Source: an uncultured Acidimicrobiales bacterium
GTDB lineage: Bacteria > Actinomycetota > Acidimicrobiia > Acidimicrobiales > VFJN01
DNA: 64,000 bases
Assembly (NCBI GenBank): GCA_963842395.1
Contig: CAWJGJ010000002.1
Coordinates: 1,397,720-1,461,719 of the forward strand
Reading direction: 5' to 3'
The notes under the pieces were generated by a model that was not told where the DNA came from, made no database searches, and was given only the letters and a program-made list of their open reading frames with translations. The translations under genes were made by a program, and so were the position numbers. Positions 10,257 through 39,392 of this stretch are shown in pieces (position 1 is the first letter of the stretch; each line of letters opens with the position of its first letter).

Positions 10257-10382
10257 GACGGCAACCTACCGCCGCCCACGGCGCTCCCTCGGGCCAGGCA
10301 AAGTCCGGTGTCCCAACGGGCGCCGCCACGGTCTCGGCCGAGCTCCGGCCATCAGACACGATGGAACAGGCGGGCGGCCAGC

Positions 10383-13293: not shown

Positions 13294-14571
13294 ATGACGA
13301 GCGACACCGTGACTGGCGAGACGACGACCGGGCAGGCGGGGACGTCGGCGTGTTCGTGCTGTGGCGAGGAGCGCCGCGAATCGGAGCTGGCGAGGCTGGG
13401 GTGCCACAGCGAGGTCGCGCTGTGTGACGGCTGCCTCGACTGGCTCCGCGACCAGCGATCGGCGGCCGGCGGGAGCCAGGTGCGTCGAGCGGTGCCGATC
13501 CTGGCCACCTCGGACGTGACCCGGGCGCTGGAGCACTACGCCGCCCTCGGGTTCGAGACCGAGGCGTGGGGAGGGGGCGGGTACGGGTTCCTGACCCGTG
13601 ACGGGGTCGAGCTCCATCTCGGCTCGGTCGAGGGTCACGATCCGACGACCAACACCGTGAGCTGCTACCTGTTCGTCGGCGACGCGGACGCGCTGCACGC
13701 CGAGTGGGCGGCGGCGGGGGTGGGGGGCCAGTTGGAGGCCCCCACCGACACCGACTACGGGCTGCGCGAGGGTCGTCACGTCGACCCCGACGGCAACGAC
13801 ATCCGCTTCGGCTCGCCGTTGCCCGACGGCCCGACCGACGACGGCTCGGTGCTCCTGGCCGCCGACGATCCGCTGGCGGTCGCCGCCACGGAGGCGGTCC
13901 AGGCCGGCGACCTCGACACGGTCACCCGGCTGCTGGCCGACCACCCCGAGCTGGCGACCGCCCGGATCGGGGACGCGACGACGTCCCGCACGATGGTGCA
14001 CGTCGCGACGGACTGGCCGGGCCACTTCGCCAACGGCGGCCGGATCATCGCGGCGCTCGCCGGGGCGGGCGCCGACGTCAACGCGCCGTTCGCCGGCAGC
14101 CACGCCGAGACACCGCTGCACTGGGCCGCCAGCAGCGACGACGTCGAGGCCCTCGACGCCCTGATCGACGCGGGCGCGGACATCGAGGCGCCCGGGGCGG
14201 TGCTCGGCGGAGGCACCCCCCTCGCCGATGCCGTCGGGTTCGGGCAGTGGCAGGCCGCCCGGCGCCTCGTCGAGCGCGGCGCCGCCACCCGGCTGAAGGA
14301 CGCCGCCGCGCTCGGGATGATGGACCGCATCGGGGCCGGCTTCTCCGGCGACCAGGCACCGCCTCCGGACCACGTCACCGACGCGTTCTGGGCGGCGTGT
14401 CAGGCGGGGCAGCGGGAGGCCGCCGAGTACCTGCTCGACCGTGGCGCAGACCTCAACTGGGTCGGCTGGGACGACCTCACCCCCCTGGACGTGGCCCTCC
14501 GGAGCGACGCCCCCGACCTCGCCGAGTGGCTGCGCGGCAGGGGCGCCAAACCCGCAGCCGAGCTCAGCTGA
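13294..14571 (+). CDS. Cys-rich N-terminus + VOC (glyoxalase/bleomycin-resistance) domain + ankyrin-repeat fusion protein
   Basis: GGGGGA SD precedes ATG 13294. N-terminal CSCCGEE...CHSEVALCDGC, then a VOC-like segment VPILATSDVTRALEHYAALGFE...VDPDGNDIRFG. Ankyrin-type repeats follow (TPLHWAASSDDVEALDALIDAGADIEA, LTPLDVALRSDAPDLAEWLRGRGA). Confidence 0.75.
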   Translation: MTSDTVTGETTTGQAGTSACSCCGEERRESELARLGCHSEVALCDGCLDWLRDQRSAAGGSQVRRAVPILATSDVTRALEHYAALGFETEAWGGGGYGFLTRDGVELHLGSVEGHDPTTNTVSCYLFVGDADALHAEWAAAGVGGQLEAPTDTDYGLREGRHVDPDGNDIRFGSPLPDGPTDDGSVLLAADDPLAVAATEAVQAGDLDTVTRLLADHPELATARIGDATTSRTMVHVATDWPGHFANGGRIIAALAGAGADVNAPFAGSHAETPLHWAASSDDVEALDALIDAGADIEAPGAVLGGGTPLADAVGFGQWQAARRLVERGAATRLKDAAALGMMDRIGAGFSGDQAPPPDHVTDAFWAACQAGQREAAEYLLDRGADLNWVGWDDLTPLDVALRSDAPDLAEWLRGRGAKPAAELS

Positions 14572-24167: not shown

Positions 24168-25270
24168 TCAGGGCCCGGGCAGTGGCGGCAGGTGCGCCAT
24201 CAGCGCCTGCAGGAGCAGCGTCTCGTTGGGGTAGCGCTGCAGCGACACGGCGGCGGCGTCGATGCGGGTCGCCGCCTCGACGAACGAGCGCCGGGCGCCC
24301 CGCTCGACGAGGGCGTCGCGGTAGGCCGCCGCCAGCGTGGCCAGGCCGAAGCGCAGCTCGGCGGTGCGGAACCGGCGCACCTCGCGCTTGTGGCGGGCCT
24401 CGAGGTCCTTCTTGCCCGACCCCCGCAGCCCGTACTGCTCGATCTGCTCGTCGAGCTCGGCGACCTCGGCCGCCTGGACCTGCTGCAGCGGCCCCAACGC
24501 CTCGGCGATCATGGCCTGCAGCTCGGCCACCACGGCGGCCGCCCGATGGCCCGTGCCGTCGAGCCGGCCGGGCGCCTCGCGCCAGGCCTGGTGGCGCAGG
24601 GCCAGGCGATCGTCGCTGGCCAGGGTGCGGGCGCGGTCGAGGTCCCCGCCCGCGGCCGCAGCCGCGGCGGAGGCCCGCTCGGCGTCGACGCCCTCGGCCA
24701 CGAGGCGCTCGGCCACCACCTCGGCCGGCAACGCCTGCAGCTCGATCCGCACGCACCGGCTGGCGATCGTGACCAGCTCCGGTACGACCTCGGTCGCCGA
24801 CAGCACGAAGACGGTCGACGCCGGCGGCTCCTCCACGGTCTTGAGGAGGTAGCCCGCCGCCTCGTCCTCCATGTCCTCGCAACCGTCCGCCACGACCACC
24901 TTGCGGGTGCCCTCGACCGGAGCCAGCGTGGCGTGGCGCACCACCCGCTCGGCGTCGCCCTTGCGGAAGGTGTTGCCCTCGGGCTCGACCACCCGCAGGT
25001 CCGGGTGCTGCTCGGCCAGGGCCAGGCGCAGGTGGCGGCGCCGCTCGTCGTCGTCTCGGCCCCGGCGGCCAGCAGCAGGGCGGCGAAGCCCCGGGCCACC
25101 GCCCGGGCGCCCGACCCCGCCGGCCCCACCAGCAGGTAGGCGTGCACCGGCCCGCGCGCCGCCGCCGTGAGCTGGCGGATCGCCCCGGCCTGGCCCACGA
25201 CCTGGTGCCACGGATCGTCGGGGTCGACGCCCGGGTGGTGGTCGACGGTGGCGGGCCCGGTCGGTGTCAC
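24168..25270 (-). pseudogene. holB: DNA polymerase III subunit delta-prime, one apparent frameshift
   Basis: The N-terminal part (HAYLLVGPAGSGARAVARGFAALLLA) is in one frame. The rest (...KVVVADGCEDMEDEAAGYLLKTVEEPPASTVFVLSA...ASRCVRIEL) is in another, with the break in a C4/G4 run at about 25060. It sits in the conserved topA-tmk-holB order. Confidence 0.8.
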
Positions 25271-26094: not shown

Positions 26095-28878
<2,784 letters not shown>

Positions 28879-29033: not shown

Positions 29034-29075
29034 GGGGTGATCCCCGATGCCCCGACGGGGGGTCAGCCGTAGCCT
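29034..29075 (+). promoter_or_regulatory. GATCCCC-box promoter, copy 1
   Basis: GGGGTGATCCCCGATG (29034-29049), 20 nt, then TAGCCT (29070-29075, TANNNT), upstream of the first IniB-like gene. Confidence 0.55.
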
Positions 29076-29121
29076 GACAAGGTCCCCGGATCGCCGCCGG
29101 GGCGTCAACTCAGGAGGACAG

Positions 29122-29913
29122 ATGGACGGCATGTCACTTCTCGACGTGCTGCGGGGCGTCATGCTCGACCCGGCCGAACAGGCCGCGTACAACGCCAACC
29201 CCGGCGCGTACCTGGAGCACTACGGCTACGACGACGTCGACTCCGCCGACCTGTCCGAAGCCTTCGGCCTCGTGGCCGACACGCTGCCCCCCGAGGTGGC
29301 CCAGACCGCGTGGCAGGCCTCGGCCGACCACGGGGACGAGGCCTTCGGTGGGGTGACCACCGAGTTCGACACCCAGGCCGGCGTCGACGCCGAGCCCGAG
29401 CCACCGCCCGGGGCCGATGCGCCCGGGGCGGCCGACGACGCCGACCCCGCGCTGTCGTTCGGCTACGGCGAGGCCGACGATCAGGACCTCGACGGCGACG
29501 CGTCGGGCGCGGGCCTGCTCGCGGCGGACGCGTCGACCACCAACGGCAGCCACGACGGCGGCGCCTTCGGGGACGCGGCCGTCGACGACCTCGCGGATCC
29601 CGACGACGCCGGAACGTTCGGCGACCTCAGCACCGGAGACGAGAGCGGCACCGGCGACGTCAGCGGCGAGGACGGCGACGACGCCGGCGACGACGCCGGC
29701 CCGGACGGGCCCGCCGCGGACGACGACGGTGCCGGGCCCGGCGACGGCTGGGACGACCTCGGCGACGGCCAGCTCGACGGCGGGCTGGAGGGCGACGACG
29801 GCGGCCTGGGGATCGGCGAGCTCGGCGACGACTCGGCCGAGATCGACGGCCTGAACGACCTCGCCGGCCTCCCGGACGACTCGTCCGACGGCACCGACAT
29901 CGGCTCGTTCTGA
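29122..29913 (+). CDS. IniB N-terminal domain protein with Asp/Gly-rich acidic tail (paralog 1)
   Basis: (MDG)MSLLDVLRGVMLDPAEQAAYNANPGAYLEHYG resembles the IniB N-terminus (SLIDYILSLFRSEDAARSFVAAPG in M. tuberculosis, from memory). AGGAGG at 29112-29117. The alternative start at 29131 (MSLL) aligns better with the paralogs. The tail has one Arg and no Lys. Confidence 0.75.
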   Translation: MDGMSLLDVLRGVMLDPAEQAAYNANPGAYLEHYGYDDVDSADLSEAFGLVADTLPPEVAQTAWQASADHGDEAFGGVTTEFDTQAGVDAEPEPPPGADAPGAADDADPALSFGYGEADDQDLDGDASGAGLLAADASTTNGSHDGGAFGDAAVDDLADPDDAGTFGDLSTGDESGTGDVSGEDGDDAGDDAGPDGPAADDDGAGPGDGWDDLGDGQLDGGLEGDDGGLGIGELGDDSAEIDGLNDLAGLPDDSSDGTDIGSF

Positions 29914-30027
29914 CCCTGCTCTCGGAGCGCGCACGGGCCCACGTCGAGCGTCGCGAACCGTTCGGGCCGCGACGCCGTATCCCGCTCCGTGACAGCACGC
30001 AGGACAGCGCTCTCGCCGCTCTCGATC

Positions 30028-30053
30028 GTGGCCCGGGTACTCACCCGGGCCAC
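30028..30053 (+). terminator. stem-loop downstream of IniB-like gene 1
   Basis: Perfect 11-bp stem GTGGCCCGGGT/ACCCGGGCCAC with loop ACTC. There is no U tract. Confidence 0.4.
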
Positions 30054-30123
30054 CGTCGCGCCCGGCCCCGGCGCACTCCCCGGGACCCCGTCGCGATCCC
30101 CTAAGGGATCCACCGGCCGGCAG

Positions 30124-30165
30124 GGGGCGATCCCCGATGGCCAGCTGACGCCGGAGTCGTAGCGT
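30124..30165 (+). promoter_or_regulatory. GATCCCC-box promoter, copy 2
   Basis: GGGGCGATCCCCGATG (30124-30139), 20 nt, then TAGCGT (30160-30165). Extra half-sites CGATCCCC-TAA-GGGATC lie at 30094-30110. Confidence 0.55.
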
Positions 30166-30224
30166 GCTCCACACGCAAGGTCGCTCGAGAGGCGGGTGGC
30201 CCCAAAACCAGGAGCAACTAAGCG

Positions 30225-31382
30225 ATGTCACTCATCGACACCCTCTTCAACATCTTCAACGACAACGACACCCAGAACGCCTTCCAGAACAACCCTGAGG
30301 GCTTCCTGAACCAGAACGGGCTCGGCAACATCAGCAGCATCGAGGTGCAGGAAGCGATCCCGCACGTCCTGACGGCCCTCCAGGGCAACTCGGGCGGCGC
30401 CACCCAGGGCGGCGCGGCGTCCTTCGCCAGCAGCGGCAACGTCACCCTGCCCCCGCCGCCCCCCGGCGGCGGCGGCGACGACGGCGGCCTGTCGGGCGCC
30501 ATCGAGTCGATCAACCACTACACCAGCGTCCTGAACGAGACGAACCAGACGTTCGAGGACAACGACACCACCAACATCGACGACTCGGACACCCAGGTCG
30601 ACCAGTCGGTCAACCAGGACATCACCGCCTTCGGCGATGTCACCCAGGACTTCGACAACGACGTCGTGTCCGGTGACGGCAACGCCCTGGCCGGCGACAA
30701 CTCGCAGGTCAACAGCGGTGCCGGGGCCGTGCAGGCCGGCGACGACATCGAGGACTCCAACGTCGTCACCGGTGTCGTCAACGACTCGGTCCTGGCCGAC
30801 GACATCGAGGACTCGGTCGTCGGCGACAACAACGAGGCCATCATCGACTCCGAGGTCGGCGCGGCCGCCTTCGGTGACGGCGACGCCACCAACGTCACGG
30901 CCCAGAACGCCAACGTCGGCGACGGCACCCAGATCGTGGGCGGCAACGGCGACGTCAACGCCAACGTGGGCGACGGCGACTTCACCCAGATCGACGACTC
31001 CAACCTGAGCGAGTCGGTCGTGGGCGGCGGCACCGTGCAGTCCAACGACGTCAACATCGAGGCCGACGACGGCGCCGCAGTGGCGTTCGGCGAGGGCTCC
31101 GAGGCCGAGGGCTCGAACGTCGACATCGACGATGTCAGCGGCAACGTCCAGGTGGCCGGCGACGACTCGACCCAGGTCGTGGACCAGTCGACCGACAACT
31201 CGGTCAACGACAGCTTCAACGCCACCGACAGCTTCAACGCCACCGACAACTCGGTGAACGACAGCTACAACATCGAGGACAGCTTCGACACCGAGGTCGA
31301 CGCCAGCGACAACAGCGTCAACATCGATGAGAGCGACAACTCGATCGACGCCAGCGACGACGACGTCGTCGACATCGCCTGA
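30225..31382 (+). CDS. IniB N-terminal domain protein with Asp/Asn/Ser/Val-rich repeat tail (paralog 2)
   Basis: 385-aa intact ORF with AGGAGC 9 nt before the ATG. The N-terminus is MSLIDTLFNIFNDNDTQNAFQNNPEGFLNQNG, followed by a poly-Pro/Gly hinge and about 290 aa of quasi-repetitive acidic sequence. No Lys or Arg anywhere in the protein. Confidence 0.8.
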   Translation: MSLIDTLFNIFNDNDTQNAFQNNPEGFLNQNGLGNISSIEVQEAIPHVLTALQGNSGGATQGGAASFASSGNVTLPPPPPGGGGDDGGLSGAIESINHYTSVLNETNQTFEDNDTTNIDDSDTQVDQSVNQDITAFGDVTQDFDNDVVSGDGNALAGDNSQVNSGAGAVQAGDDIEDSNVVTGVVNDSVLADDIEDSVVGDNNEAIIDSEVGAAAFGDGDATNVTAQNANVGDGTQIVGGNGDVNANVGDGDFTQIDDSNLSESVVGGGTVQSNDVNIEADDGAAVAFGEGSEAEGSNVDIDDVSGNVQVAGDDSTQVVDQSTDNSVNDSFNATDSFNATDNSVNDSYNIEDSFDTEVDASDNSVNIDESDNSIDASDDDVVDIA

Positions 31383-31418
31383 GCCTCCGGCAACGGCACC
31401 AGCAATCCCAGGCATCAT

Positions 31419-31450
31419 CCAGGGCCCCGGCAGCGTTGCCGGGGCCCTGG
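31419..31450 (+). terminator. stem-loop downstream of IniB-like gene 2
   Basis: Perfect 14-bp stem CCAGGGCCCCGGCA/TGCCGGGGCCCTGG with loop GCGT. Confidence 0.5.
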
Positions 31451-31460
31451 CGCGCCCTGG

Positions 31461-31500
31461 CGGGTCGGGGTCGGCCCGGGCGGGTCGGGGTCGGCCCGGG
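31461..31500. repeat. perfect 20-nt tandem duplication
   Basis: CGGGTCGGGGTCGGCCCGGG occurs twice in tandem, directly after the terminator hairpin. Confidence 0.8.
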
Positions 31501-31558
31501 CGGCGGCGATGATCCCCGTCCCGGCGAGCCATCCCCCACGCCACCCTCCATTCACCGC

Positions 31559-31600
31559 GGGGCGATCCCCGATGCCCTCCCCGTCACCTGGGCGTACGTT
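31559..31600 (+). promoter_or_regulatory. GATCCCC-box promoter, copy 3
   Basis: GGGGCGATCCCCGATG (31559-31574), 20 nt, then TACGTT (31595-31600). An additional GATCCCC lies at 31511-31517. Confidence 0.55.
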
Positions 31601-31656
31601 GTCGCCATGGCCTCCCGGATGCGGGTGGAGGTCCCGAGCACCAGGAGTGCCCCGAA

Positions 31657-32878
31657 ATGAGCGTCATCGACTTCCTTCTCGACTACTTCCGCAGCGACGA
31701 GCAACAAGACGAGTTCGCGAACGATCCTGCGGCCTTCCTCGACGCCAACGCCCCCGACGGGCTGACCGCCGAGGCCATCCTCGCCGCCATGCCCGGCGTG
31801 TGCGCCGAGCTGCCCGCCGAGCAGGCCGACTCGCTGCGGACGGCCTACGGGCTGGACGGCTCGTCGGGCGACGGCGGCACCGGCGGCGGCGGTGGCAGTG
31901 GTGGCGGCGGTGGCGGGCGACATCGATCCCGGCTCACAACCCGCTTCCCCCGCCCCCCACCCCGGACCCGGGCGGCGACCCCCTCGAGAACCTGATCGAG
32001 CAGATCAACTACTACACGACCGTCACGAACGTCACGAACCAGACGTTCGAGGACAACGACGTCACGAACATCGACGACAGGGACACGCAGGTCGACCAGT
32101 CGGTCAACCAGGACATCACCGCCTTCGGCGATGTCACCCAGGACTTCGACAACGACGTCGTGTCCGGTGACGGCAACGCCCTGGCCGGCGACAACTCGCA
32201 GGTCAACAGCGGTGCCGGGGCCGTGCAGGCCGGTGGCGACATCGAGGACTCCAACGTCGTGACCGGCGCCGTCACCGACTCGGTCCTGGCCGACGACATC
32301 GAGGACTCGGTGGTCGGCGACGGCAACCAGGCCATCATCGACTCGTCGGTGGGCGCCGCCAGCTTCGGCGACGGCGACGCCACCAACGTCGACGCCCAGA
32401 ACGCCAACGTCGGCGACGGCACCCAGATCGTGGGCGGCAACGGCGACGTCAACGCCAACGTGGGCGACGGCGACTTCACCCAGATCGACGACTCCAACCT
32501 GAGCGAGTCGGTCGTGGGCGGCGGCACCGTGCAGTCCAACGACGTCGACATCACGGCCGACGACGGCGCCGCAGTGGGCTTCGGCGCCGGCTCCTCGGCC
32601 GAGGGCTCGAACGTCGACGTCGACGATGTCAGCGGCAACGTCCAGGTGGCCGGCGACGACTCGACCCAGGTCGTGGACCAGTCGACCGACAACTCGGTCA
32701 ACGACAGCTTCAACGCCACCGACAGCTTCAACGCCACCGACAACTCGGTGAACGAGTCAGCTACAACATCGAGGACAGCTTCGACACCGAGGTCGACGCC
32801 AGCGACAACTCGATCGACGTCGACGCCAGCGACAACTCCGTCGACGTCAGCGACGACGACGGTATCGACGTCGCCTGA
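31657..32878 (+). pseudogene. IniB N-terminal domain protein with Asp/Asn-rich repeat tail (paralog 3), two apparent frameshifts
   Basis: The N-terminus is MSVIDFLLDYFRSDEQQDEFANDPAAFLDANA. The frame breaks in the Gly-codon run at about 31915 and again at about 32757 (aacgagtcagctac versus aacgacagctac in paralog 2). The reconstructed end is ...SDDDGIDVA* with TGA at 32876-32878. Confidence 0.7.
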
Positions 32879-32994
32879 TCGCACTCATTGACGCACCGGC
32901 AACGGGGCCCCGGTTCACTGCTGGGGTCCCGTGCCGCGTGTACTGACACCCACTCGATCCGCGTTAGCGTTGCCGGGTACAAGGAGCTGCGCAC

Positions 32995-34901
32995 ATGGCG
33001 GGGAACCCCAACGCCGGCCAGAGGTCGGCGACCGTCCAACAGGCACTGTCCGTAGTCGACCTCGGGCGACAGGCGAGCACGGCGTACGACCGTCCCGACC
33101 TGGCCAGCCGGCTCGCGTTCACGCGCAAGCGCCTCGCCGACCCCGCCTTCCACGTGTTCGTCATCGGCGAGTTCAAGCAGGGCAAGTCGTCGCTGGTCAA
33201 CGCCCTGCTCAACGCACCCGTGTGCCCCGTCGACGACGACATCGCCACGTCGGTGCCCACCGCCATCCGCTACGGCGACCCGCCCGCCGCGGCCGTCCTG
33301 TTCGACCCGGGTGGCGACCTGTCCGATCCCACCCGCGAGCCGATCCGCGAGACCATCCCGGTCGACCAGGTCGCCCGCTACGTCACCGAGACGGCCGAGG
33401 TCGCCGGCGAGCGCCGGGTCAGCTCGGTCGAGGTGTCCCTGCCCCGCAAGCTGCTCAGCGACGGGCTCGTGATCGTCGACACCCCCGGCGTCGGGGGACT
33501 GGGCTCGGCCCACAGCGCCGCCACCATCGGGGCGCTGCCCCTGGCGGACGCCGTGGTGTTCGTCTCCGACGCCAGCCAGGAGTTCACCGGTCCCGAGCTG
33601 GATTTCCTGCAGACCGCCCGCCGCATGTGCCCCAACGTGGTGTGCGTGCTCACCAAGACCGACTTCTACCCGTCGTGGCGCAAGATCCGCGACCTCAACG
33701 TCGACCACCTGGCCCGCCAGGGGGTCCCGGCCGAGATCCTGTGCGTGTCGTCCTCGCTGCGGGTGCACGCCCTGCGGGCCAACGACCGCGAGCTCAACCG
33801 CGAGTCGGGCTTCCCCGAGCTGGCGGGGTACCTCCAGAACAAGATCGCCGGCAACGCCGAGAAGCTGAGCGTGCGGTCGGCCGTGAACGACGTCGTCGCC
33901 GTCGCCTCTCTGCTCGAGAGCCAGTTCCGCAGCGAGCGCGATGCCCTCGACAACCCCGAGGAAGCCCAGCGGGTGGTCGACAACCTCACCGAGCTCAAGG
34001 CCAAGGCCGAGCGGCTGAAGAGCGGCGTGTCGAAGTGGCAGCAGACGCTCACCGACGGCGTGGTCGACCTGCAGGCCGACGTCGACCACGACCTGCGGGC
34101 CCGGGTCCGGCAGGTGTCCCGCATGTCCGACGAAGCGATCGAGGCCAGCGACCCGGCGGAGACCTGGGAGGAGTTCGAGCCGTGGCTCACCCGGCGGGTC
34201 ACCGAGGAGGTCGTCCACAACTACACCTTCCTCCACGCCGCGCGCCGACGGCCTGATCGAGCGCGTGAGCGAGCACTTCGGCGAGGACGGCGCGGACATC
34301 GTCATCGACCTCGACGTCGCCAACCCCAGGGAGGTGCTGGGGACGGTCGACGCCAACACCGACGTCGAGCTCAGGAAGATGGGCGTCGGTGGGCAGAGCC
34401 TGACCATGCTGAAGGGCAGCTACGGCGGCATCATCATGTTCAGCGTGCTGGGGAGCATGGCCGGCCTGGCGGTCGGCGCGGTCGGCGGTCCCGCCGCGAT
34501 GATGGTCGGCCTCCTCATGGGCCGCTCGGCGCTGAAGGGCGAGAAGCAGCGCCAGCTCGCGAATCGCCGCGCCCAGGCCCGGCAGGCCGTACGTAAGTAC
34601 ACCGACGAGGTGAGCTTCGTCGTGGGCAAGGACTCCCGCGACACGCTGCGCCGCACCCAACGCCGCATGCGCGACTTCTTCGCGGCCCGAGCCGAGGAGC
34701 TGCACCGGTCGACCACGAGCGCGCTCGCCGCCGCCCAGCAGGCGGTGAAGTCCGACGCCTCCAGCCGCCAGAAGCGGCTGCGCGACGTCGACGCCGAGCT
34801 GAAGCGCATCGCGGTGCTGCGCGACCGGGCCTACGCGCTCGGCGCCCGAGCTCAAGGCCGGCGACAAGGCGGCCGGCGCCGCCGGGGGTGGCTCGTCGTG
34901 A
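32995..34901 (+). pseudogene. IniA-like bacterial dynamin-like GTPase, two apparent frameshifts
   Basis: AAGGAG SD. G1 motif VIGEFKQGKSSLVNAL and G3 motif VDTPGVGG are present. A hydrophobic paddle GGIIMFSVLGSMAGLAVGAVGGPAAMMVGLLMG follows. Breaks are at about 34245 and 34846. The reconstructed tail is ...APELKAGDKAAGAAGGGSS*, about 634 aa (M. tuberculosis IniA is about 640 aa, from memory). Confidence 0.75.
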
Positions 34902-36382
34902 ACGCTCGCACCAGCTCGACGCTGCTGGCCAGCGTGCGGCACCTGCTGGAGCAGGGCACGCAGTCTTACGCGCACGTGCCCGAGGCCCGGCAGCGCCTCC
35001 AGGCAGTGCTCGACCGGCTCGACGAGCCGCTGCGGGTCGCCATCGCCGGCAAGGTCAAGGCCGGCAAGTCCACGCTGCTCAACGCCCTGGTGGGCGAGGA
35101 GCTGGCACCCACCGACGCCGGCGAGTGCACCCGCATCGTCACCTGGTACCGCGACGGCATCACCTACCGGGCCACGCTCGAGCCCAAGCAGGGCGAGGCC
35201 CGCCAGGTGCCCTTCGCCCGCGACGGCGGGGCCATCAGCATCGATCTGGGCGGCACCGACCCCGAGGACGTGAACCGCCTGGTCATCGAGTGGCCGTCGT
35301 CGTCGCTGCGGCAGATGACGCTCATCGACACCCCGGGCATCGCCTCGCTGTCGACCGACGTGTCGGCCCGCACCATCGCCTTCCTCACCCCGGGCGAGGA
35401 CCAGGTGACCCCGGCCGACGCGGTGCTGTACCTGATGCGGCACCTGCACGCGTCCGACATCAACTTCCTCGAGGCGTTCCACGACGAGGAGTTCTCGCAG
35501 GCCACGCCGGTCAACGCCGTGGCCGTGCTGTCCCGGGCCGACGAGGTGGGCGTGGGGCGCATCGACTCGATGGCGTCGGCCCAGCGCATCGCCGCCCGCT
35601 ACCGCCACGACCCCAAGGTGCGGCGCCTGGCCCAGACCGTGGTCCCGGTCGCCGGCCTGCTGGCCCAGTCGGGGGCCACGCTGCGCGAGGCCGAGTACAA
35701 GGGCCTCGACGCCATCGCCAACGCACCCCGCGACGACGCCGAGGCGTTGTTCCTGTCGGCCGACCGGTTCGTGCAGGCCGAGACGCCCATCCCTCTCACC
35801 TCGATGGAGCGCGAGCACCTGCTCGACCGCTTCGGCCTGTTCGGCGTGCGGCTGGCCGTGGCGCTCATCCGCCAGGGCGCCGCCTCGACGGCCACCGCCC
35901 TGTCGACCGAGCTGGTGCGGCGCAGCGGCCTGGTCGAGCTGCGCGACGTGCTGCTCAGCCAGTTCGCGCAGCGGCGCGACGTGCTCAAGGCCCGGTCGGC
36001 CCTGCTGGCCCTCGAGTCGGTGTTGCACGAGTTCCCGGTGGCCGACGGCGAGGTCCTGGCCTCCGAGCTCGAGCGCATCACCTCGGCGGCCCACGAGTTC
36101 GCGGAGATCCGCCTGCTGAACGCCCTGCGGGCCAGCGGCATCAAGATCAAGCCGGCCGAGGCCGCCGAGATGGAGCGGGTGCTGGGGGCCGAGGGCAGCA
36201 GCATCCACACCCGCCTCGGCCTCAGCCCCGAAGCCGACGTGTCCGAGGTGCGGCGGGCATTGGGCAACGCCATCGGGCGGTGGCAGCGTCGGGCCGAGAG
36301 CCCTATGTCGTCGCGCGAGGTCGCGGACGCGGCCCGCGTGGTCATCCGATCCTGCGAAGGTCTGCTGGTCTCGCTGGGCTGA
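34898..36382 (+). CDS. IniC-like bacterial dynamin-like GTPase
   Basis: The GTG start overlaps the upstream stop (GTGA at 34898-34901). G1 motif IAGKVKAGKSTLLNALVG and G3 motif IDTPGIASL are present. 494 aa and intact (M. tuberculosis IniC is about 493 aa, from memory). Confidence 0.8.
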   Translation: MNARTSSTLLASVRHLLEQGTQSYAHVPEARQRLQAVLDRLDEPLRVAIAGKVKAGKSTLLNALVGEELAPTDAGECTRIVTWYRDGITYRATLEPKQGEARQVPFARDGGAISIDLGGTDPEDVNRLVIEWPSSSLRQMTLIDTPGIASLSTDVSARTIAFLTPGEDQVTPADAVLYLMRHLHASDINFLEAFHDEEFSQATPVNAVAVLSRADEVGVGRIDSMASAQRIAARYRHDPKVRRLAQTVVPVAGLLAQSGATLREAEYKGLDAIANAPRDDAEALFLSADRFVQAETPIPLTSMEREHLLDRFGLFGVRLAVALIRQGAASTATALSTELVRRSGLVELRDVLLSQFAQRRDVLKARSALLALESVLHEFPVADGEVLASELERITSAAHEFAEIRLLNALRASGIKIKPAEAAEMERVLGAEGSSIHTRLGLSPEADVSEVRRALGNAIGRWQRRAESPMSSREVADAARVVIRSCEGLLVSLG

Positions 36383-36409
36383 GCCTCGCGCTTTTCTGCT
36401 TCCTCGCTG

Positions 36410-38102
36410 GTGGAGATATCTGGGGGACACATCGACATGCCGAGCATGCGTGATGCCGACCGGGACGAGTCGTTGGCCGCCCTCACCGAACGCGACGAGC
36501 CGGCGCCGGGTTCGGCCGACTTCTGGTGGTCGGCGTCGCCGGGGGGCGCCATAGCTCCCCCGCCGCGATCCCCCGCCCCGGCCCCGGGCTCGCCCCTCCC
36601 CGGGACGCCCGTGCCCGACGCCGGCGACCCGGTCCCCGACGCACCCGTGACCGGCGACCCGGTGCCCGGCGCACCGGCCACCGCCACATCGGGCGCCCGC
36701 GCGCCGGACACCGACGAACCTGTCCCCGGCGACCCGGCCTCCTGGGGGCCCGGCGCCGACGATGCCGTCCCGCCGGCGTGGCGGGGGCCGGGGTACGTCC
36801 CGCCCCCGTCACCCGCGTACTCGCCCCCGGTGGTCCCGCCCGTGGCGCCGGTGCGCCCGCCCAGCCCCTACCGCGCGCCCGGTGCCGGAGCCCGAGCACG
36901 AGCCGCTGTCACAGGCCCAGCGGTCACGGCGAGCGGGCGGCCGCCTCCTCGTGGCCGGGGTGTCGCTCGTGGCCATCGCCGCGGGCGTCGTCGTGATCCA
37001 GGGGAGCGGCGGCGGCACCGACGACCCCGATCGCTACGTGTTCGGTCAGGTGGCCGCCACCTCGCCGGGGGTGACCATCCGTGCCGGCGCCGGCGAGGGC
37101 GACGAGCGCCCGCTGGCTCCCGGCGACGACGTCGAGGCCGGATCGGTGCTCGAGACCACCGCCGGCGCCTCGGCGTCCGTGGACCTCGCGCAGGGCGGGG
37201 CGCTACGGGTCGAGGGCGGGGCCCGTCTGGTGTTCGTCGACCTGGCCGCCGACCCCCAGACCGGCGCCGCCGCGGCGCGGGGCAAGCCGGCCATCCAGGT
37301 CGAGGGCGGGCGGGTGTGGCTCAACCCGCAGGGCCGGGAGCCATTCGAGGTGCAGGTGGTGGGGGGAACGGTCGGCACCACCGGCCACCCGGTGGCGATC
37401 GACTGCGACCCCGTGTGCGCGGTCGAGGCCCCCGCCGGCGGCGTGACCGTCACCACCCGGGCGGACGGCCGGTCGACCCCCGCCCCGGGCGAGCTCGTGA
37501 CCATCACCTCCGGAAACAGCTTCGAGGTCGAGCTCGCGGGCGAGCCGTCGGCCTGGGCCACCGAGAACCTGGCCGCCGACGGCGAGGCGGGCATCCCCGA
37601 GGACCCCGACGCCGGCGAGCCCGGCATCAGGGAGTCGGCGCTGTTCGGCGGCAGCTACTCCCTCGACCTCGAGGTGGTCGGGAGCCCCACCGGCGACGCC
37701 ATCCCCGAGCCGCTGCGCTACCCCCAGGGCAGCACCTACAACGTCACGGTGCTGGCCGACGGCACCACCTGTGACGCCCTGCCGTGCGCCGTGCCGGTCA
37801 GCGGCCTCGACGGCGGTGCGGGCTCGGCCGAGCTGGCCGACGCCACCGTCGCCCTCACGCTCGGCCAGACCATCGACTGTTTCGACGAGACCGACACGGC
37901 GGTGGTGGTGCCCGGCATCGGCACCACCACAGTCGACGTCACGCTCACGGTCGACGATGTCGCTTACGAGGGCGGCCGCTGGGTGGTCACGTCGCTCTCC
38001 GGCACGGGCGAGGTGTCGGCGCAGCTCACCAAGGTGTGCAACCCCACCGACGTCCTGGGCACCAGCACGTCGGCCGTGGAGGCGACGGGCGCGGCCAACT
38101 GA
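36410..38102 (+). pseudogene. Pro-rich cytoplasmic segment + single TM + FecR-like extracytoplasmic domain protein, one apparent frameshift
   Basis: High-GC3 Pro-rich coding runs in the first frame to about 36880. It then continues in the next frame with ...RRAGGRLLVAGVSLVAIAAGVVVI (TM) and a FecR-like segment, VTIRAGAGEGDERPLAPGDDVEAGSVLETTAGASASVDLAQGGALRVEGGARLVF. The start is uncertain (36410 GTG, 36437 ATG or 36446 ATG). Confidence 0.6.
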
Positions 38103-38127
38103 CCTCGGCCGGGCGACCCGGCCGAGG
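38103..38127. terminator. bidirectional stem-loop between convergent genes
   Basis: Perfect 11-bp stem CCTCGGCCGGG/CCCGGCCGAGG with loop CGA, starting right after the stop at 38102. Confidence 0.5.
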
Positions 38128-38160: not shown

Positions 38161-38210
38161 GACCAGGTGGTCAGCAGACCAGGTGGATCAGCAGACCAGG
38201 TGGATCAGGC
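38161..38210. repeat. 16-17-nt tandem repeat, 3 copies, overlapping the thiolase stop codon
   Basis: The three copies read GACCAGGTGGTCAGCA, GACCAGGTGGATCAGCA and GACCAGGTGGATCAG. The last copy contains the TGA (minus strand) of the thiolase gene. Confidence 0.75.
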
Positions 38211-39392
38211 CGAGAGCAGGATGGCGTCGCCCTGCCCGCCGCCGCCGCACAAGGCGGCGGCACCGGTGCCCCCACCCCGCCGCTTGAGCTCGTGCAGCAG
38301 CGTGAGCGCCACGCGGGTGCCCGACATGCCCACGGGGTGGCCGAGGGCGATGGCGCCGCCGTTGACGTTGACCACGTCGTCGGTGATGCCGAGGTCGGCC
38401 ATCGACGCCAGCCCGACGGCGGCGAACGCCTCGTTCAGCTCGAACAGGTCGATGTCACCCACGGACTTGCCGGAGGACTCGAGCGCGGCGTTGATGGCCC
38501 GCGACGGCTGGGTGAGCAGCGACGGGTCGGGGCCGGCCACCTGGCCGTAGCCGATGACCTCGCCGAGCGGCTCGACGCCGAGGCGCTCGGCCACCGCCTT
38601 CGACACCACCACCACGGCGGCGCCGCCGTCGGAGATCTGCGAGGCGTTGCCGGCGGTGATGTTGCCGGCCTTGTCGAACGCGGGGCGCAGGCCGGACAGC
38701 GACTCGACCGTGGTGCCCGGGCGGACGCCCTCGTCGGTGTCGACCACGACCGGGTCGCCCCGGCGCTGGGGCACCTCGACGGGCACGATCTCGTCGGCGA
38801 AGCGGCCCTCCTTGATGGCCGCGGCTGCCCGCTCGTGCGACTTGGCGGCCAGGTCGTCCTGGGGGGCCCGCTCGAGACCGGCGGAGGCGGCGTACTTCTC
38901 GGTGCCGGCGCCCATGGCCACCTGGTCGAAGGCGCAGAACAGGCCGTCGTACATCATCGAGTCGACCACGGACTTGTCGCCCAGCCGGTAGCCCTCGCGG
39001 GCCCCGGGCAGCAGGTAGGGCGCCTGGGTCATCGACTCCATGCCCCCGGCCACCACGATCTCCGCCGCACCCGCCTGGATGAGCAGGTCGGCGAGGAAGA
39101 TGGCGTTGAGGCCCGACAGGCACACCTTGTTGATGGTGGTGGCGGGCACGGTCATGGGGATGCCGGCGTTGGCGGCGGCCTGGCGGGCCGTGATCTGCCC
39201 GCCGCCGGCCTGGAGCACCTGACCCATGAACACGTAGTCGACCTGGTCGGGGGCGACGCCGGCGCGGTCCAGCGCGGCCTTGATGGCGAAGCCGCCCAGG
39301 TCGGTAGCGGCGAACCCGCCGAGCGCCCCGGAGAGCTTGCCGATCGGCGTACGGGCACCTGCCAGGATCACGGAACCAGCCATGGCGGCCAT
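38205..39392 (-). CDS. acetyl-CoA C-acetyltransferase (thiolase II)
   Basis: 395-aa intact ORF. It has the catalytic Cys region INKVCLSGLNAI, the NEAFAAV motif and C-terminal GGGQGDAILL. Confidence 0.9.
   Translation of the reverse strand: MAAMAGSVILAGARTPIGKLSGALGGFAATDLGGFAIKAALDRAGVAPDQVDYVFMGQVLQAGGGQITARQAAANAGIPMTVPATTINKVCLSGLNAIFLADLLIQAGAAEIVVAGGMESMTQAPYLLPGAREGYRLGDKSVVDSMMYDGLFCAFDQVAMGAGTEKYAASAGLERAPQDDLAAKSHERAAAAIKEGRFADEIVPVEVPQRRGDPVVVDTDEGVRPGTTVESLSGLRPAFDKAGNITAGNASQISDGGAAVVVVSKAVAERLGVEPLGEVIGYGQVAGPDPSLLTQPSRAINAALESSGKSVGDIDLFELNEAFAAVGLASMADLGITDDVVNVNGGAIALGHPVGMSGTRVALTLLHELKRRGGGTGAAALCGGGGQGDAILLSA

What the first reader, a model, noticed from the sequence alone, without database searches (positions are those of the whole stretch)
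29034..38102. iniBAC-like cell-envelope stress locus with an expanded, highly divergent IniB component
Three consecutive genes begin with the short IniB N-terminal motif: MSLLDVLRGV..., MSLIDTLFNIFNDNDTQNAFQNNPEGFL... and MSVIDFLLDYFRSDEQQDEFANDPAAFL... This compares with SLIDYILSLFRSEDAARSFVAAPG of M. tuberculosis IniB, quoted from memory. They are followed by two dynamin-like GTPases whose sizes, G1/G3 motifs and hydrophobic paddle match IniA and IniC and which are coupled by a GTGA overlap. A Pro-rich/TM/FecR-domain protein follows. In mycobacteria iniBAC is a single operon induced by cell-wall inhibitors, IniA is a membrane-fission dynamin-like protein, and the role of IniB is unknown. Here the Gly/Ala-rich IniB tail is replaced by extremely acidic tails. 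The gene is triplicated and each copy has its own promoter and terminator. The gene neighbourhood does not look like the mycobacterial ini locus as I recall it, but the taxon cannot be assigned from this window. This looks like a variant, undescribed form of the dynamin-like membrane-repair module in which the enigmatic IniB partner has diversified.
Basis: partly seen in the sequence, partly recalled or inferred. Interest (0 to 1): 0.8.

Follow-up and report, generated by a model that had tools for sequence, protein, structure and literature searches.

The report
IniBAC-type dynamin locus in Acidimicrobiales
This is the Acidimicrobiales version of the actinobacterial ini membrane-stress locus (IniA/IniC dynamin-like GTPases plus three IniB-family proteins), a known kind of system whose very acidic, lysine-free IniB tails are the common form across Actinomycetota rather than a new variant.

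Summary
Three consecutive genes carry the IniB N-terminal domain (NCBIfam NF038175: 42.9, 29.8 and 29.6 bits; cutoff 40). A full-length IniA homologue follows (E 6e-114 to M. smegmatis IniA, PDB 6J72), then an IniC-type partner joined by a GTGA overlap. The last gene encodes a Pro-rich, single-pass membrane protein with a weakly supported FecR-like fold.

The "new variant" reading is only partly right.
- The same gene order, with intact genes, recurs in more than 10 Acidimicrobiales MAGs.
- IniB-N genes sit directly upstream of IniA/IniC across Actinomycetota.
- Acidic, almost Lys/Arg-free tails also occur in Nitriliruptoraceae, Georgenia, Propionibacterium and fast-growing mycobacteria. The Gly/Ala-rich M. 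tuberculosis tail is the exception.
- NCBI and Pfam already name the domain.

New details:
- A dedicated promoter motif (GGGGyGATCCCCGATG-N18-CgTAnnnTG) precedes every IniB-like gene, and a GC hairpin follows each.
- The two long paralogues keep distinct N-domains, but gene conversion homogenises their tails.
- The sixth gene is restricted to this clade, and no IniR regulator lies nearby.

The five frame breaks in the locus are probably assembly errors, because essential holB is also broken. The role of the IniB tails remains inferred.

The parts
29034..29076 (+). Promoter-like motif P1 upstream of g1: GGGGTGATCCCCGATG-N18-CCGTAGCCTG (proposed -10 TAGCCT)
   Evidence: Exact pattern occurs 3 times in the window, 0.00 expected. 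It is conserved 93-104 nt upstream of all 38 non-redundant Acidimicrobiales IniB-like genes examined. Promoter function is inferred.
29131..29913 (+). g1: short IniB-family protein (260 aa), Rv0340/iniB*-like N-domain, acidic Gly/Ala/Asp-rich tail (net charge -68). An alternative start lies at 29122.
   Evidence: IniB_NTERM 29.8 bits, E 4.3e-7, below the cutoff of 40; Rv0340_fam 14.3 bits against a cutoff of 100. Its N-domain scores best against mycobacterial Rv0340-type N-domains. Orthologues of 210-260 aa hold the same position in related loci.
30028..30052 (+). GC-rich hairpin after g1 (possible terminator without a U-tract)
   Evidence: Fold of 30015-30085 gives -45.9 kcal/mol, z -4.28, and 0 of 200 shuffles fold as well. 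Function is inferred.
30095..30110 (+). Palindromic element GATCCC-CTAA-GGGATC upstream of P2
   Evidence: An ATCCCCTA element lies 127-130 nt upstream of the g2-type start in six related loci. It resembles the CCCCTAA repeats upstream of mycobacterial iniB*/iniB.
30124..30166 (+). Promoter-like motif P2 upstream of g2
30225..31382 (+). g2: long IniB-family protein (385 aa) with a 'type A' N-domain and an acidic D/N/S/G/V-rich tail (net charge -78, no Lys or Arg)
   Evidence: IniB_NTERM 42.9 bits, above the cutoff. 270 homologues were found, the best 67% identical, carrying PF27122 'IniB'. In the AF2 model, residues 1-52 form four helices at pLDDT about 80 and the tail sits at pLDDT 30-55.
31419..31450 (+). 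Perfect 14-bp GC hairpin after g2
   Evidence: z -3.58.
31559..31601 (+). Promoter-like motif P3 upstream of g3
31657..32878 (+). g3: long IniB-family protein (about 405 aa after repair) with a 'type B' N-domain (MSVIDFLLDYFRSDE). Its tail is 84% identical in protein to the g2 tail. Two frame breaks: about 31914 (-2) and 32756-32757 (+GT).
   Evidence: IniB_NTERM 29.6 bits. DNA alignment to g2. Indels located against the intact locus L003. Intact orthologues are 391-424 aa.
32903..32931 (+). GC hairpin after g3, conserved in most related loci
   Evidence: -31.6 kcal/mol, z -3.80; alignment of nine loci.
32965..32986 (+). Conserved -10-like TAGCGT (32965-32970) and Shine-Dalgarno AAGGAG (32981-32986) before DLP1. 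The GATCCCCGATG motif is absent here.
   Evidence: G.GTTA.C.T columns are invariant in nine loci. Promoter function is inferred.
32995..34901 (+). DLP1: IniA homologue (636 aa after repair) with G1 GEFKQGKS, G3 DTPG, G4 TKTD and a hydrophobic membrane paddle (GSYGGIIMFSVLGSMAGLAVG...). Frame breaks at 34240 (+G) and 34841 (+G).
   Evidence: M. smegmatis IniA 6J72: E 6.4e-114, residues 21-617 aligned to 8-596. Dynamin_N 78 bits. 92% identity to the intact 633-aa P0121. Indels.
34898..36382 (+). DLP2: IniC-type partner GTPase (494 aa); the GTG start overlaps the DLP1 TGA stop (GTGA)
   Evidence: Dynamin_N 47.8 bits. BDLP 2J68 E 4.9e-8. The best BLASTP hit in each of the 83 related loci with a hit starts close to the end of the IniA-like match, and is 40-44% identical over about 430-500 aligned residues to the mycobacterial one.
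36437..38102 (+). g6: Pro-rich cytoplasmic N-terminus, one TM helix, and an extracytoplasmic beta-rich region with a FecR-like first domain and conserved Cys residues. One frame break somewhere in about 36800-36880.
   Evidence: AF2 model of 36915-38099: pLDDT 89.7. Foldseek top hits 4M0N/4M0H and PupR 6OVK: E 2e-3 to 8e-2, probability 1.0, TM-score (target-normalised) 0.53. Pfam FecR 18 bits against a cutoff of 24 on homologue P0241. Homologues were found only in Acidimicrobiales loci.
38103..38127 (+). Perfect 11-bp GC hairpin after g6, at the end of the locus
   Evidence: z -2.73.

Best explanation
The region is the Acidimicrobiales (class Acidimicrobiia) form of the pan-actinobacterial ini membrane-remodelling locus.

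Shown:
- DLP1 is a full-length IniA homologue, with a GTPase domain, stalk and hydrophobic membrane paddle.
- DLP2 is the IniC-type partner and is translationally coupled to DLP1.
- Three upstream genes encode IniB-family proteins. Each has a roughly 50-residue four-helix N-terminal domain, a Gly/Pro linker, and a polyanionic tail with almost no Lys or Arg that is predicted to be disordered.
- Each IniB-like gene has the same conserved upstream motif and its own downstream hairpin. DLP1-DLP2-g6 has a different conserved -10-like element.

Inferred:
- A dedicated regulator induces the three IniB-like genes through the GGGGyGATCCCCGATG element. It may be IniR-like and encoded elsewhere, because the motif shares a GATCCCC/CCCCGAT core with sites upstream of iniB genes in taxa that do have IniR.
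- As in mycobacteria, the IniA/IniC pair performs GTP-dependent fission or repair of the cytoplasmic membrane, or vesicle release, under envelope stress.
- The IniB N-domains dock the tails to the DLPs or to the membrane. The two long paralogues may use different partners, since their N-domains stay distinct while their tails are kept the same.
- The charged, disordered tails act by steric and electrostatic crowding to promote or regulate membrane bending, which the DLPs then sever.
- g6 is a clade-specific extracytoplasmic FecR-like sensor or accessory protein.
For: Homology of the parts:
- IniA homology: E 6.4e-114 over nearly the full length.
- Dynamin_N hits on both DLPs.
- IniB_NTERM hits on all three upstream genes.

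Conserved gene order:
- Identical order, with intact genes of 636 and 494 aa, in L002, L003 and L004.
- An IniC-type gene follows the IniA-type gene in every one of the 83 related loci that gave a hit.
- IniB-N ORFs lie directly upstream in 66 of 85 sequence sets spanning Acidimicrobiales, Nitriliruptoraceae, Micromonosporaceae, Georgenia, Propionibacterium and Mycobacteriaceae.

Promoter motif:
- 3 exact matches in the window against 0.00 expected.
- Present at 93-104 nt upstream of all 38 non-redundant Acidimicrobiales IniB-like genes.
- In an exact scan of 241 million metagenome records, 36 of 42 instances are followed by an IniB-N ORF.

Other evidence:
- Hairpins after each IniB-like gene.
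- Tails have no TM segment, no periodicity and low pLDDT, yet contain many invariant columns and show dN/dS 0.44.
- Concerted evolution of the tails alongside divergent N-domains.
- Published background: IniA mediates fission (PMC6715688). IniA and IniC are required for vesicle release and IniB is vesicle cargo (PMC10240201). IniR is a dedicated activator and iniB* exists (PMC5760070).
Against: - No expression or functional data exist for this lineage. Induction by stress, the promoter role of the motif and the terminator role of the hairpins are all inferred.
- No IniR homologue lies in the 64-kb window or within 8-10 kb of any Acidimicrobiales locus.
- g1 and g3 fall below the curated NF038175 cutoff.
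- The crowding role of the tails and the docking role of the N-domains are hypotheses with no direct test here. The many invariant tail residues could instead mean a folded or ligand-dependent structure that AF2 misses.
- Five genes or gene parts are frame-broken in this assembly, so loss of function cannot be formally excluded.
Confidence: 0.7

Rival explanations
1. The locus is decaying. g3, DLP1 and g6 are true pseudogenes, so the module is non-functional in this organism.
For: Five frame breaks fall within about 5 kb. The neighbouring topA, thiolase and the 1013-aa membrane protein gene are intact.
Against: - Essential holB (DNA polymerase III delta') is also frame-broken at about 25050-25085.
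- Every fragment keeps GC3 of 0.9-1.0 in the expected frame.
- The repaired proteins are full length (636 and 494 aa) and 92-96% identical to intact orthologues, with dN/dS 0.10-0.15.
- One related contig (L001) has similarly fragmented gene calls, and many relatives are metagenome bins whose naming suggests long-read assembly; the long-read origin is my inference from the names.
Confidence: 0.1
2. The IniB-like tails are not disordered crowding agents. They are folded or cation-induced structures, such as Ca2+/Mg2+-binding beta-rich domains, that are exported in vesicles or to the envelope. There they would act as structural or ion-buffering wall components, as the old 'cell-wall protein' idea for IniB proposed.
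For: - The composition is Asp/Asn/Gly/Ser-rich, and 33 columns of the alignment, nearly all in the tail, are invariant across 76 sequences.
- The g1 orthologue in L002 carries DxDGDGxxD thrombospondin-type-3-like strings and a weak Excalibur hit (E 0.09).
- IniB is reported as extracellular-vesicle cargo in M. tuberculosis (PMC10240201).
Against: - There is no signal peptide or TM segment (maximum hydropathy 0.61).
- DxDxDG-type motifs are not enriched over shuffled sequence, and there is no repeat periodicity.
- AF2 gives pLDDT 30-55 with 76 sequences.
- No Pfam repeat family matches.
Confidence: 0.2
3. The DLP pair works in cell division or septation, like Streptomyces DynA/DynB, rather than in envelope-stress repair. 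The IniB-like proteins would then be division-site accessory factors.
For: Paired actinobacterial DLPs, one with a membrane anchor, have been shown to stabilise FtsZ rings in Streptomyces (cited in PMC6715688). No stress data exist for this clade.
Against: - DLP1 aligns end to end with IniA (E 6e-114), and the locus keeps the ini-specific IniB-N genes.
- Promoter elements related to those upstream of mycobacterial iniB*/iniB are present.
- No division genes are adjacent.
Confidence: 0.1
4. The three small ORFs are chance low-complexity ORFs in GC-rich DNA, and the N-terminal resemblance to IniB is coincidental.
For: The tails are low-complexity, Pfam-A gave no hit, and two of the three fall below the NCBIfam cutoff.
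Against: - E-values of 4e-7 to 3.5e-11 to NF038175.
- 270 homologues with PF27122.
- 506 cluster representatives carry the domain, nearly always at the extreme N-terminus.
- GC3 of 0.93-0.97.
- Conserved position, promoter motif and hairpins.
Confidence: 0.01

Closest known systems
Mycobacterium tuberculosis / M. marinum ini locus (iniR Rv0339c, iniB* Rv0340, iniB Rv0341, iniA Rv0342, iniC Rv0343)
   Same: - The core order is the same: a short IniB-N protein, then long IniB-N protein(s), then IniA, then IniC.
- DLP1 is 37-40% identical to mycobacterial IniA over its full length, and DLP2 is 40-44% identical to IniC.
- The N-terminal IniB domain is shared.
- Promoter regions share CCCCGAT / ATCCCCTA-type elements and a TAnnnT -10.
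   Different: - There are three IniB-N genes instead of two.
- The tails are acidic and D/N/S-rich rather than Gly/Ala-rich.
- Each IniB-like gene appears to be its own transcription unit.
- No IniR lies within the window.
- An extra FecR-like membrane protein (g6) is present.
- The flanks are topA/tmk/holB and a thiolase.
M. smegmatis IniA (PDB 6J72/6J73), a membrane-fission bacterial dynamin-like protein
   Same: The alignment is end to end (E 6.4e-114). The G motifs and the hydrophobic lipid-binding loop region GSYGG...MF..L are conserved.
   Different: Identity is only about 37%. No biochemical data exist for the Acidimicrobiales protein.
IniB-N-domain proteins of Georgenia, Propionibacterium, Nitriliruptoraceae and Mycolicibacterium (annotated only as 'IniB N-terminal domain-containing protein' or hypothetical)
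   Same: - The architecture is the same: N-domain, linker, and an acidic tail nearly free of K/R, placed directly upstream of IniA/IniC.
- The tail core IDDRDT..VDQSVNQ..GDV.Q.FDND...SGDG and the C-terminal DNS/DDD repeats are shared with the first three taxa (tail HMM E 4e-16 to 7e-9).
   Different: - Those taxa have one or two copies, and an IniR homologue lies next to the locus.
- Mycolicibacterium tails are similar in composition but gave no tail-HMM hit.
Streptomyces DynA/DynB and other paired BDLPs (Campylobacter DLP1/2, Nostoc BDLP)
   Same: These are also paired, adjacent dynamin-like GTPases, one of them membrane-anchored. BDLP 2J68 and CjDLP 5OWV are the next-best PDB hits.
   Different: Similarity is much weaker (E 1e-13 to 1e-5, GTPase domain only). 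No IniB-N genes are known next to them; this was not tested here.
FecR / PupR-type anti-sigma sensor domains
   Same: The first extracytoplasmic beta-domain of g6 superposes on 4M0N and 6OVK (rmsd 2.7-3.1 A over about 147 columns, probability 1.0). Both are single-pass membrane proteins.
   Different: The sequence signal is sub-threshold (18 bits against 24). No profile detected an N-terminal anti-sigma domain, and the N-terminus is Pro-rich. A second Cys-rich beta-domain follows. No ECF sigma factor gene is adjacent.

Membership tests
ini locus (iniB*/iniB/iniA/iniC of Mycobacteriaceae) | IniA-type dynamin-like GTPase with a membrane-binding hydrophobic region | tested here: met
   6J72 E 6.4e-114, residues 21-617 aligned to 8-596, paddle region aligned. 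Dynamin_N 78 bits.
ini locus (iniB*/iniB/iniA/iniC of Mycobacteriaceae) | Second, IniC-type DLP immediately downstream of IniA and co-translated with it | tested here: met
   GTGA overlap at 34898-34901. 40-44% identity over about 430-500 aligned residues to the gene after iniA in mycobacterial loci. Present in all 83 related loci that gave a hit.
ini locus (iniB*/iniB/iniA/iniC of Mycobacteriaceae) | One or more IniB N-terminal-domain genes directly upstream on the same strand | tested here: met
   Three genes. The same arrangement occurs in 66 of 85 sequence sets across Actinomycetota.
ini locus (iniB*/iniB/iniA/iniC of Mycobacteriaceae) | Adjacent dedicated activator IniR (AAA+/MalT-like/LuxR STAND protein) | tested here: not met
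   BLASTP with two mycobacterial IniR sequences finds homologues next to the locus in Mycobacteriaceae, Georgenia, Propionibacterium, Actinoplanes, Salinispora and Nitriliruptoraceae. It finds none in the 64-kb window or in any Acidimicrobiales locus. A copy elsewhere in the genome cannot be excluded.
ini locus (iniB*/iniB/iniA/iniC of Mycobacteriaceae) | Induction by cell-wall inhibitors or envelope stress | not testable with these tools
   This needs RNA-seq or qPCR in a cultured relative. Only a conserved dedicated promoter motif was found.
ini locus (iniB*/iniB/iniA/iniC of Mycobacteriaceae) | Gly/Ala-rich IniB tail, as in M. tuberculosis Rv0341 | tested here: not met
   Tails here are 22% D+E, 0% K+R, 22% G+A and 11% N (g2). 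This feature is itself confined to slow-growing Mycobacterium-type loci (54-63% G+A), so it does not define the wider family.
NCBIfam NF038175 IniB_NTERM (domain) | Score at or above the curated cutoff of 40 bits | tested here: inconclusive
   g2 scores 42.9 bits (met). g1 scores 29.8 and g3 29.6 bits, below the cutoff but with E about 4e-7. All three match a custom N-domain HMM (E 1e-16 to 5e-25) and sit in the conserved position.
NCBIfam NF038176 Rv0340 family (equivalog) | Score at or above 100 bits over the whole protein | tested here: not met
   g1 scores 14.3 bits, E 0.048. Only the N-domain resembles Rv0340-type proteins (best pairwise scores), so g1 is a positional and N-domain counterpart, not an equivalog.
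Pfam PF00350 Dynamin_N | Score at or above the gathering threshold of 27 bits | tested here: met
   DLP1 78.2 bits; DLP2 47.8 bits.
Pfam PF04773 FecR | Score at or above the gathering threshold of 24 bits | tested here: not met
   The window g6 gives no hit at E <= 1. The intact homologue P0241 scores 18 bits, E 0.004. The fold resembles FecR-family structures (Foldseek E 2e-3, probability 1.0, TM-score 0.53), so it is FecR-like by fold only.

The most novel reading that the evidence does not exclude
IniB-family proteins may form a modular class found across Actinomycetota. Each would be a small N-terminal docking domain joined to a polyanionic, disordered tail free of Lys and Arg. By steric and electrostatic crowding, the tails would drive or gate the membrane bending that IniA/IniC then sever.

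On this reading, Acidimicrobiales keep two different docking domains, perhaps one per DLP, and gene conversion forces both to carry the same tail. All copies would be switched on through a cis-element (GATCCCC/CCCCGAT core) conserved from Acidimicrobiia to Mycobacteria, implying an ancient dedicated IniR-type envelope-stress circuit. The Gly/Ala-rich M. tuberculosis IniB would then be a late derivative of this design.
Probability: 0.2. Interest if true: 0.65.

Novelty: new member of a known kind. Interest (0 to 1): 0.4.

Why it matters
The role of IniB has been open since 1998, and it has been studied almost only through the atypical Gly/Ala-rich M. tuberculosis protein.

This locus and its relatives point to a different general design. 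The common IniB is a small helical N-domain joined to a polyanionic tail with almost no Lys or Arg, always placed next to IniA/IniC. It has a dedicated promoter element, and in this clade its tails evolve in concert.

That gives concrete handles for experiments:
- testing whether the N-domains bind the DLPs;
- tail-swap experiments;
- testing whether the motif binds a regulator;
- working in tractable non-pathogens such as Georgenia and Mycolicibacterium.

It also suggests that published statements that fast-growing mycobacteria lack iniB deserve re-examination. Several Mycolicibacterium species carry an IniB-N gene directly upstream of iniA. M. smegmatis itself was not examined here.

In itself, however, the locus is an orthologue of a known system that annotation pipelines already label.

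Tried and rejected
- **Generic promoter and terminator scans.** The sigma-70 and T-tract scans found nothing useful on the + strand. A lineage-specific motif and U-less hairpins replaced them.
- **Rfam.** No family matched anywhere in the window.
- **Pfam-A on the three IniB-like proteins.** No hits. PF27122 does not appear to be in the local copy.
- **Tail as a beta-solenoid, RTX or bactofilin-like fold.** AF2 gave pLDDT 30-55, there is no periodicity, and no repeat family matches. Rejected as unsupported.
- **Ca2+-binding DxDxDG motifs.** Not enriched over shuffled sequence. The Excalibur hit (E 0.09) is non-significant.
- **Fold search with the g2 model.** Only non-significant hits (E > 3) to the leader domain of the borosin precursor SonA. 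Treated as chance.
- **One g3-DLP1-DLP2-g6 operon.** I held this view at first, then revised it. A conserved hairpin follows g3, and a conserved -10-like element precedes DLP1. Read-through remains possible.
- **IniR in the window.** None found. The large ORFs at 859-3405 (MacB/FtsX-type permease) and 4955-7873 (no Pfam hit) are not IniR-like.
- **Schlimpert 2017 (DynA/DynB).** The paper could not be read.
- **Tail HMM against Mycolicibacterium IniB-like proteins.** No hit at E <= 10, so homology of those tails is not demonstrated. Only their composition and a short DIVSGDGAVLGDGN-like string are similar.

Full report
**Observation**

The window is high-GC DNA (about 72%). ORF listing and a GC3 frame plot show six + strand genes between topA (26095-28878, - strand) and a thiolase (38205-39392, - strand).
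- g1 is 29131-29913, g2 is 30225-31382 and g3 is 31657-32878.
- DLP1 is 32995-34901 and DLP2 is 34898-36382.
- g6 is 36437-38102.

The coding frame switches without a stop codon at about 31914, 32756, 34240, 34841 and somewhere in about 36800-36880. Against the closest intact relative (L003, about 90% DNA identity), four of these resolve as isolated indels in otherwise conserved sequence: -2, +GT, +G and +G. After repair, DLP1 is 636 aa and DLP2 is 494 aa. These are exactly the lengths of the intact genes in locus L002.

**Domain tests**

- NCBIfam IniB_NTERM (NF038175, cutoff 40 bits) hits all three small proteins. g2 scores 42.9 bits (E 3.5e-11), g1 29.8 bits and g3 29.6 bits (E about 4e-7). 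g1 also weakly touches the Rv0340 family model (14.3 bits against a cutoff of 100).
- Pfam Dynamin_N hits DLP1 (78 bits) and DLP2 (47.8 bits). The IniB-like proteins get no Pfam-A hit, and g6 gets no FecR hit.
- DLP1 aligns end to end with M. smegmatis IniA (PDB 6J72). The E-value is 6.4e-114, with residues 21-617 aligned to 8-596, including the hydrophobic membrane-binding segment.
- DLP2's best solved relatives are Nostoc BDLP (E 5e-8) and CjDLP. No IniC structure has been solved.

The N-termini do hit the IniB model, and the GTPases are bacterial dynamin-like proteins of the IniA/IniC type.

**Taxon and conservation**

g2 has 270 detectable homologues. The best is only 67% identical. Many carry the precomputed Pfam family PF27122 'IniB', and one is named 'IniB N-terminal domain-containing protein [Acidimicrobiales bacterium]'. 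DLP1 is far better conserved, at 92% identity to P0121.

Three independent contigs (L002, L003, L004) show the same order with intact genes:
- holB, tmk and topA on the - strand;
- a short IniB-like gene of 201-239 aa;
- two IniB-like genes of 393-418 aa;
- a DLP of 626-636 aa;
- a DLP of 494-495 aa with a 4-nt overlap;
- a gene of 474-803 aa;
- a thiolase on the - strand.

A scan of one genome per GTDB species, using an IniA-type alignment, returned 80 loci. About 24 are Acidimicrobiales MAGs at 66-85% identity. The rest are Nitriliruptoraceae, Actinoplanes, Salinispora, Luedemannella, Georgenia, Propionibacterium, Pilimelia and many Mycobacterium and Mycolicibacterium.

Across these loci:
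- An IniC-type ORF was the best hit in all 83 related loci that gave one, starting close to the end of the IniA-like match. It is 40-44% identical to DLP2 in mycobacteria.
- A custom N-domain HMM finds IniB-N ORFs immediately upstream, on the same strand, in 66 of 85 sequence sets. Most of the remainder are cut by contig ends. Window coordinates in that output are offset by 20000.
- Copy number is three in Acidimicrobiales, two in mycobacteria (the known iniB*/Rv0340 plus iniB; PMC5760070), two in Georgenia, and one in Actinoplanes and Nitriliruptoraceae.

**The tails**

The window proteins have net charges of -68, -78 and -80, no Lys and 0-3 Arg. They have no hydrophobic segment, no repeat periodicity, and no excess of DxDxDG motifs over shuffled sequence.

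AF2, run with 76 homologues, gives a confident four-helix N-domain (residues 1-52, pLDDT about 80). The tail scores pLDDT 30-55.

- Acidic, D/N/S/G-rich tails with 0-2% K+R and lengths of about 330-480 aa are found in Acidimicrobiales, Nitriliruptoraceae, Georgenia, Propionibacterium and Mycolicibacterium.
- Gly/Ala-rich tails (54-63% G+A) are limited to slow-growing Mycobacterium-type loci.
- A tail HMM built from the Acidimicrobiales family hits the Nitriliruptoraceae, Georgenia and Propionibacterium proteins (E 4e-16 to 7e-9, with sizeable composition bias). The shared core is IDDRDT..VDQSVNQ..GDV.Q.FDND...SGDG, and the C-terminal DNS/DDD strings are also shared.
- Mycolicibacterium tails gave no HMM hit. 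They are similar in composition only.

The acidic tail is therefore the widespread state, and the M. tuberculosis tail looks derived.

**Paralogue evolution**

Within each Acidimicrobiales genome, the two long paralogues have N-domains only 27-40% identical to each other. Each N-domain is 55-95% identical to its orthologue in other genomes. Their tails show the opposite pattern: 72-93% identical within a genome, against 51-80% between genomes.

Synonymous divergence tells the same story. The g2 and g3 tails differ by dS 0.09, while g2 differs from its L003 orthologue by dS 0.26. This is concerted evolution of the tails, by gene conversion, on top of an ancient duplication. It is not a recent triplication.

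dN/dS values against L003:

| Gene or region | dN/dS |
|---|---|
| DLP1 | 0.15 |
| DLP2 | 0.10 |
| thiolase | 0.10 |
| g2 N-domain | 0.72 |
| g2 linker | 0.89 |
| g2 tail | 0.44 |

The IniB-like proteins evolve fast, but the tail is under some constraint. g1's N-domain matches Rv0340-type N-domains best. g2 and g3 both resemble IniB proper.

**Regulation**

The generic promoter and terminator scans were empty, but a specific element emerged. GGGGyGATCCCCGATG-N18-CgTAnnnTG occurs exactly three times in the window, at 29034, 30124 and 31559, against 0.00 expected. Each copy lies 97-101 nt before an IniB-like start codon.
- The element is present at 93-104 nt upstream of all 38 non-redundant IniB-like genes in the Acidimicrobiales loci. 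Positions G2-4, T8, C9-12, A14 and T15 are invariant, and so are T37, A38 and T42 (TAnnnT), while the spacer varies.
- An exact-pattern scan of the metagenome collection found 42 instances. In 36 of them an IniB-N ORF follows at the expected distance. Most of the rest are cut by contig ends or appear out of frame.
- Strong GC hairpins without U-tracts follow g1, g2, g3 and g6 (z -4.3, -3.6, -3.8 and -2.7).
- The g3-DLP1 spacer carries a conserved G.GTTAGCGT -10-like element and an AAGGAG Shine-Dalgarno sequence, but not the upstream motif.

I infer three monocistronic IniB-like units under one dedicated regulator, plus a separate DLP1-DLP2-g6 unit. Read-through between them is possible.

Related elements occur in other taxa.
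- CCCCGAT(G) followed by TAnnnT is found upstream of IniB-like genes in Georgenia, Actinoplanes, Salinispora and Nitriliruptoraceae.
- In 37 mycobacterial loci, 127 of 138 CCCCTAA heptamers lie within 300 nt upstream of IniB-N genes, a region that makes up 3.5% of the sequence.
- One ATCCCCTA element sits 127-130 nt upstream of every g2-type gene examined, including the window palindrome at 30095-30110.

IniR homologues flank the locus in all of those other taxa. None is found in the window or in any Acidimicrobiales locus. The regulator here is therefore unidentified. An IniR-type protein encoded elsewhere in the genome is a hypothesis.

**The sixth gene**

g6 homologues occur only in Acidimicrobiales. 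They were found in 21 loci and as 40 database proteins, all annotated hypothetical, with no Pfam domain.

The AF2 model of the C-terminal 395 residues is confident (pLDDT 89.7). It shows a TM helix followed by beta-rich domains with conserved cysteines. Its best PDB matches are FecR-family anti-sigma sensor domains, 4M0N/4M0H and PupR 6OVK. These give probability 1.0, target-normalised TM-score 0.53 and rmsd about 3 A, but E-values of only 2e-3 to 8e-2. An intact homologue scores 18 bits on Pfam FecR against a cutoff of 24. The protein is FecR-like by fold, and family membership is not established.

**Frame breaks**

Essential holB is also frame-broken at about 25050-25085. All fragments keep strong codon bias, and the repaired proteins are near-identical to intact orthologues. 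One related contig (L001) has similarly fragmented gene calls, and many relatives are metagenome bins; that they come from long-read assemblies is my inference from their names. I therefore read the indels as assembly errors, with a residual 10% chance that the genes are true pseudogenes.

**Mechanism**

Shown here: the identities of the parts, their conserved linkage, the shared cis-element and the hairpins.

Taken from the literature:
- IniA performs GTP-dependent membrane fission (PMC6715688).
- IniA and IniC are both needed for vesicle release, and IniB is vesicle cargo (PMC10240201).
- IniR is a dedicated activator (PMC5760070).

Inferred: the locus is an envelope-stress membrane-remodelling module. 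The N-domains dock the polyanionic, disordered tails to the DLPs or the membrane. The tails promote or gate membrane bending by crowding and charge repulsion. g6 senses or acts on the extracytoplasmic side. The tail mechanism is my preferred hypothesis, but only at about 30% confidence. A folded, cation-dependent or exported structural role is the main rival.

**Verdict**

This is a real, conserved ini-type locus in a soil Acidimicrobiales lineage. It is a new member of a known kind, and domain databases already capture its parts. Its value lies in reframing IniB: the acidic, K/R-free tail as the general design, the concerted evolution of the tails, and the dedicated and apparently ancient promoter element. 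It is not a new system.

Noticed in passing
window 29034-29076, 30124-30166, 31559-31601; L001-L026; L085-L117: A bipartite motif, GGGGyGATCCCCGATG-N18-CgTAnnnTG, precedes every IniB-like gene in Acidimicrobiales by 93-104 nt. In a scan of the whole metagenome collection it is almost exclusive to these genes (36 of 42 instances).
   Followed up: yes
window 30225-31382 vs 31657-32878; paralogue pairs in L002, L003, L004, L006, L008, L013, L026: The tails evolve in concert. The tails of the two long paralogues are 72-93% identical within a genome but 51-80% identical between genomes. Their N-domains are only about 30% identical to each other and track orthologues instead.
   Followed up: yes
L043-L084 (mycobacterial loci), about 70-190 nt upstream of the iniB*/iniB starts: CCCCTAA(T) heptamers occur in 2-3 tandem copies. 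127 of 138 occurrences in 37 loci fall within the 3.5% of sequence lying upstream of IniB-N genes. They are followed by CACCGATC-N-TAGCAT or CCCCGTTTCC-N-CATAACGTG. This is a candidate IniR operator, which I did not find described in the papers read.
   Followed up: partly
L047, L048, L050, L053, L055, L058-L066, L071-L078 and others (Mycolicibacterium / fast growers), gene ending about 100-150 nt before the IniA-like gene: Fast-growing mycobacteria carry an IniB-N-domain gene of 340-380 aa, with a D/N/S/T-rich, low-K/R tail, directly upstream of iniA. Papers state that M. smegmatis and M. phlei lack iniB. M. smegmatis itself was not among the loci.
   Followed up: partly
window about 25050-25085 (- strand): holB (DNA polymerase III delta') is split between two frames. 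This is a sixth frame break, in an essential gene, and it points to assembly indels rather than gene decay.
   Followed up: yes
window 31461-31502: A tandem duplication of a roughly 21-nt GC-rich unit (gcgggtcggggtcggcccggg, two copies) lies in the g2-g3 spacer, between the g2 hairpin and promoter motif P3.
   Followed up: no
window 8901-10265 (- strand): This ORF is a Pup ligase PafA (Pfam Pup_ligase, E 1e-163), so the organism has pupylation. The three IniB-like proteins contain no lysine and could not be pupylated.
   Followed up: no
window 30167-30224, 31602-31656; L003, L004, L006: The roughly 45-55 nt leaders between the proposed -10 element and the start codon are conserved per paralogue type. 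g2-type leaders share ACACGCAAGGTCGCT and g3-type leaders share CCACGGCCTCCCGAG. This may reflect regulation in the 5' UTR.
   Followed up: no
window 4955-7873 (+ strand) and 13159-14568 (+ strand): The first is a 973-aa ORF with strong codon bias and no Pfam hit. The second is an ankyrin-repeat protein, which is uncommon in bacteria.
   Followed up: no
L002 9119-9826 (g1 orthologue): The tail contains DxDGDGxxDxxD strings, resembling thrombospondin type-3 or Excalibur Ca2+-binding motifs (LDRDGDGIADHVDLDG, DADGDGLVDAFDLD). The Pfam Excalibur hit is only E 0.09. The window g1 lacks clear copies.
   Followed up: partly
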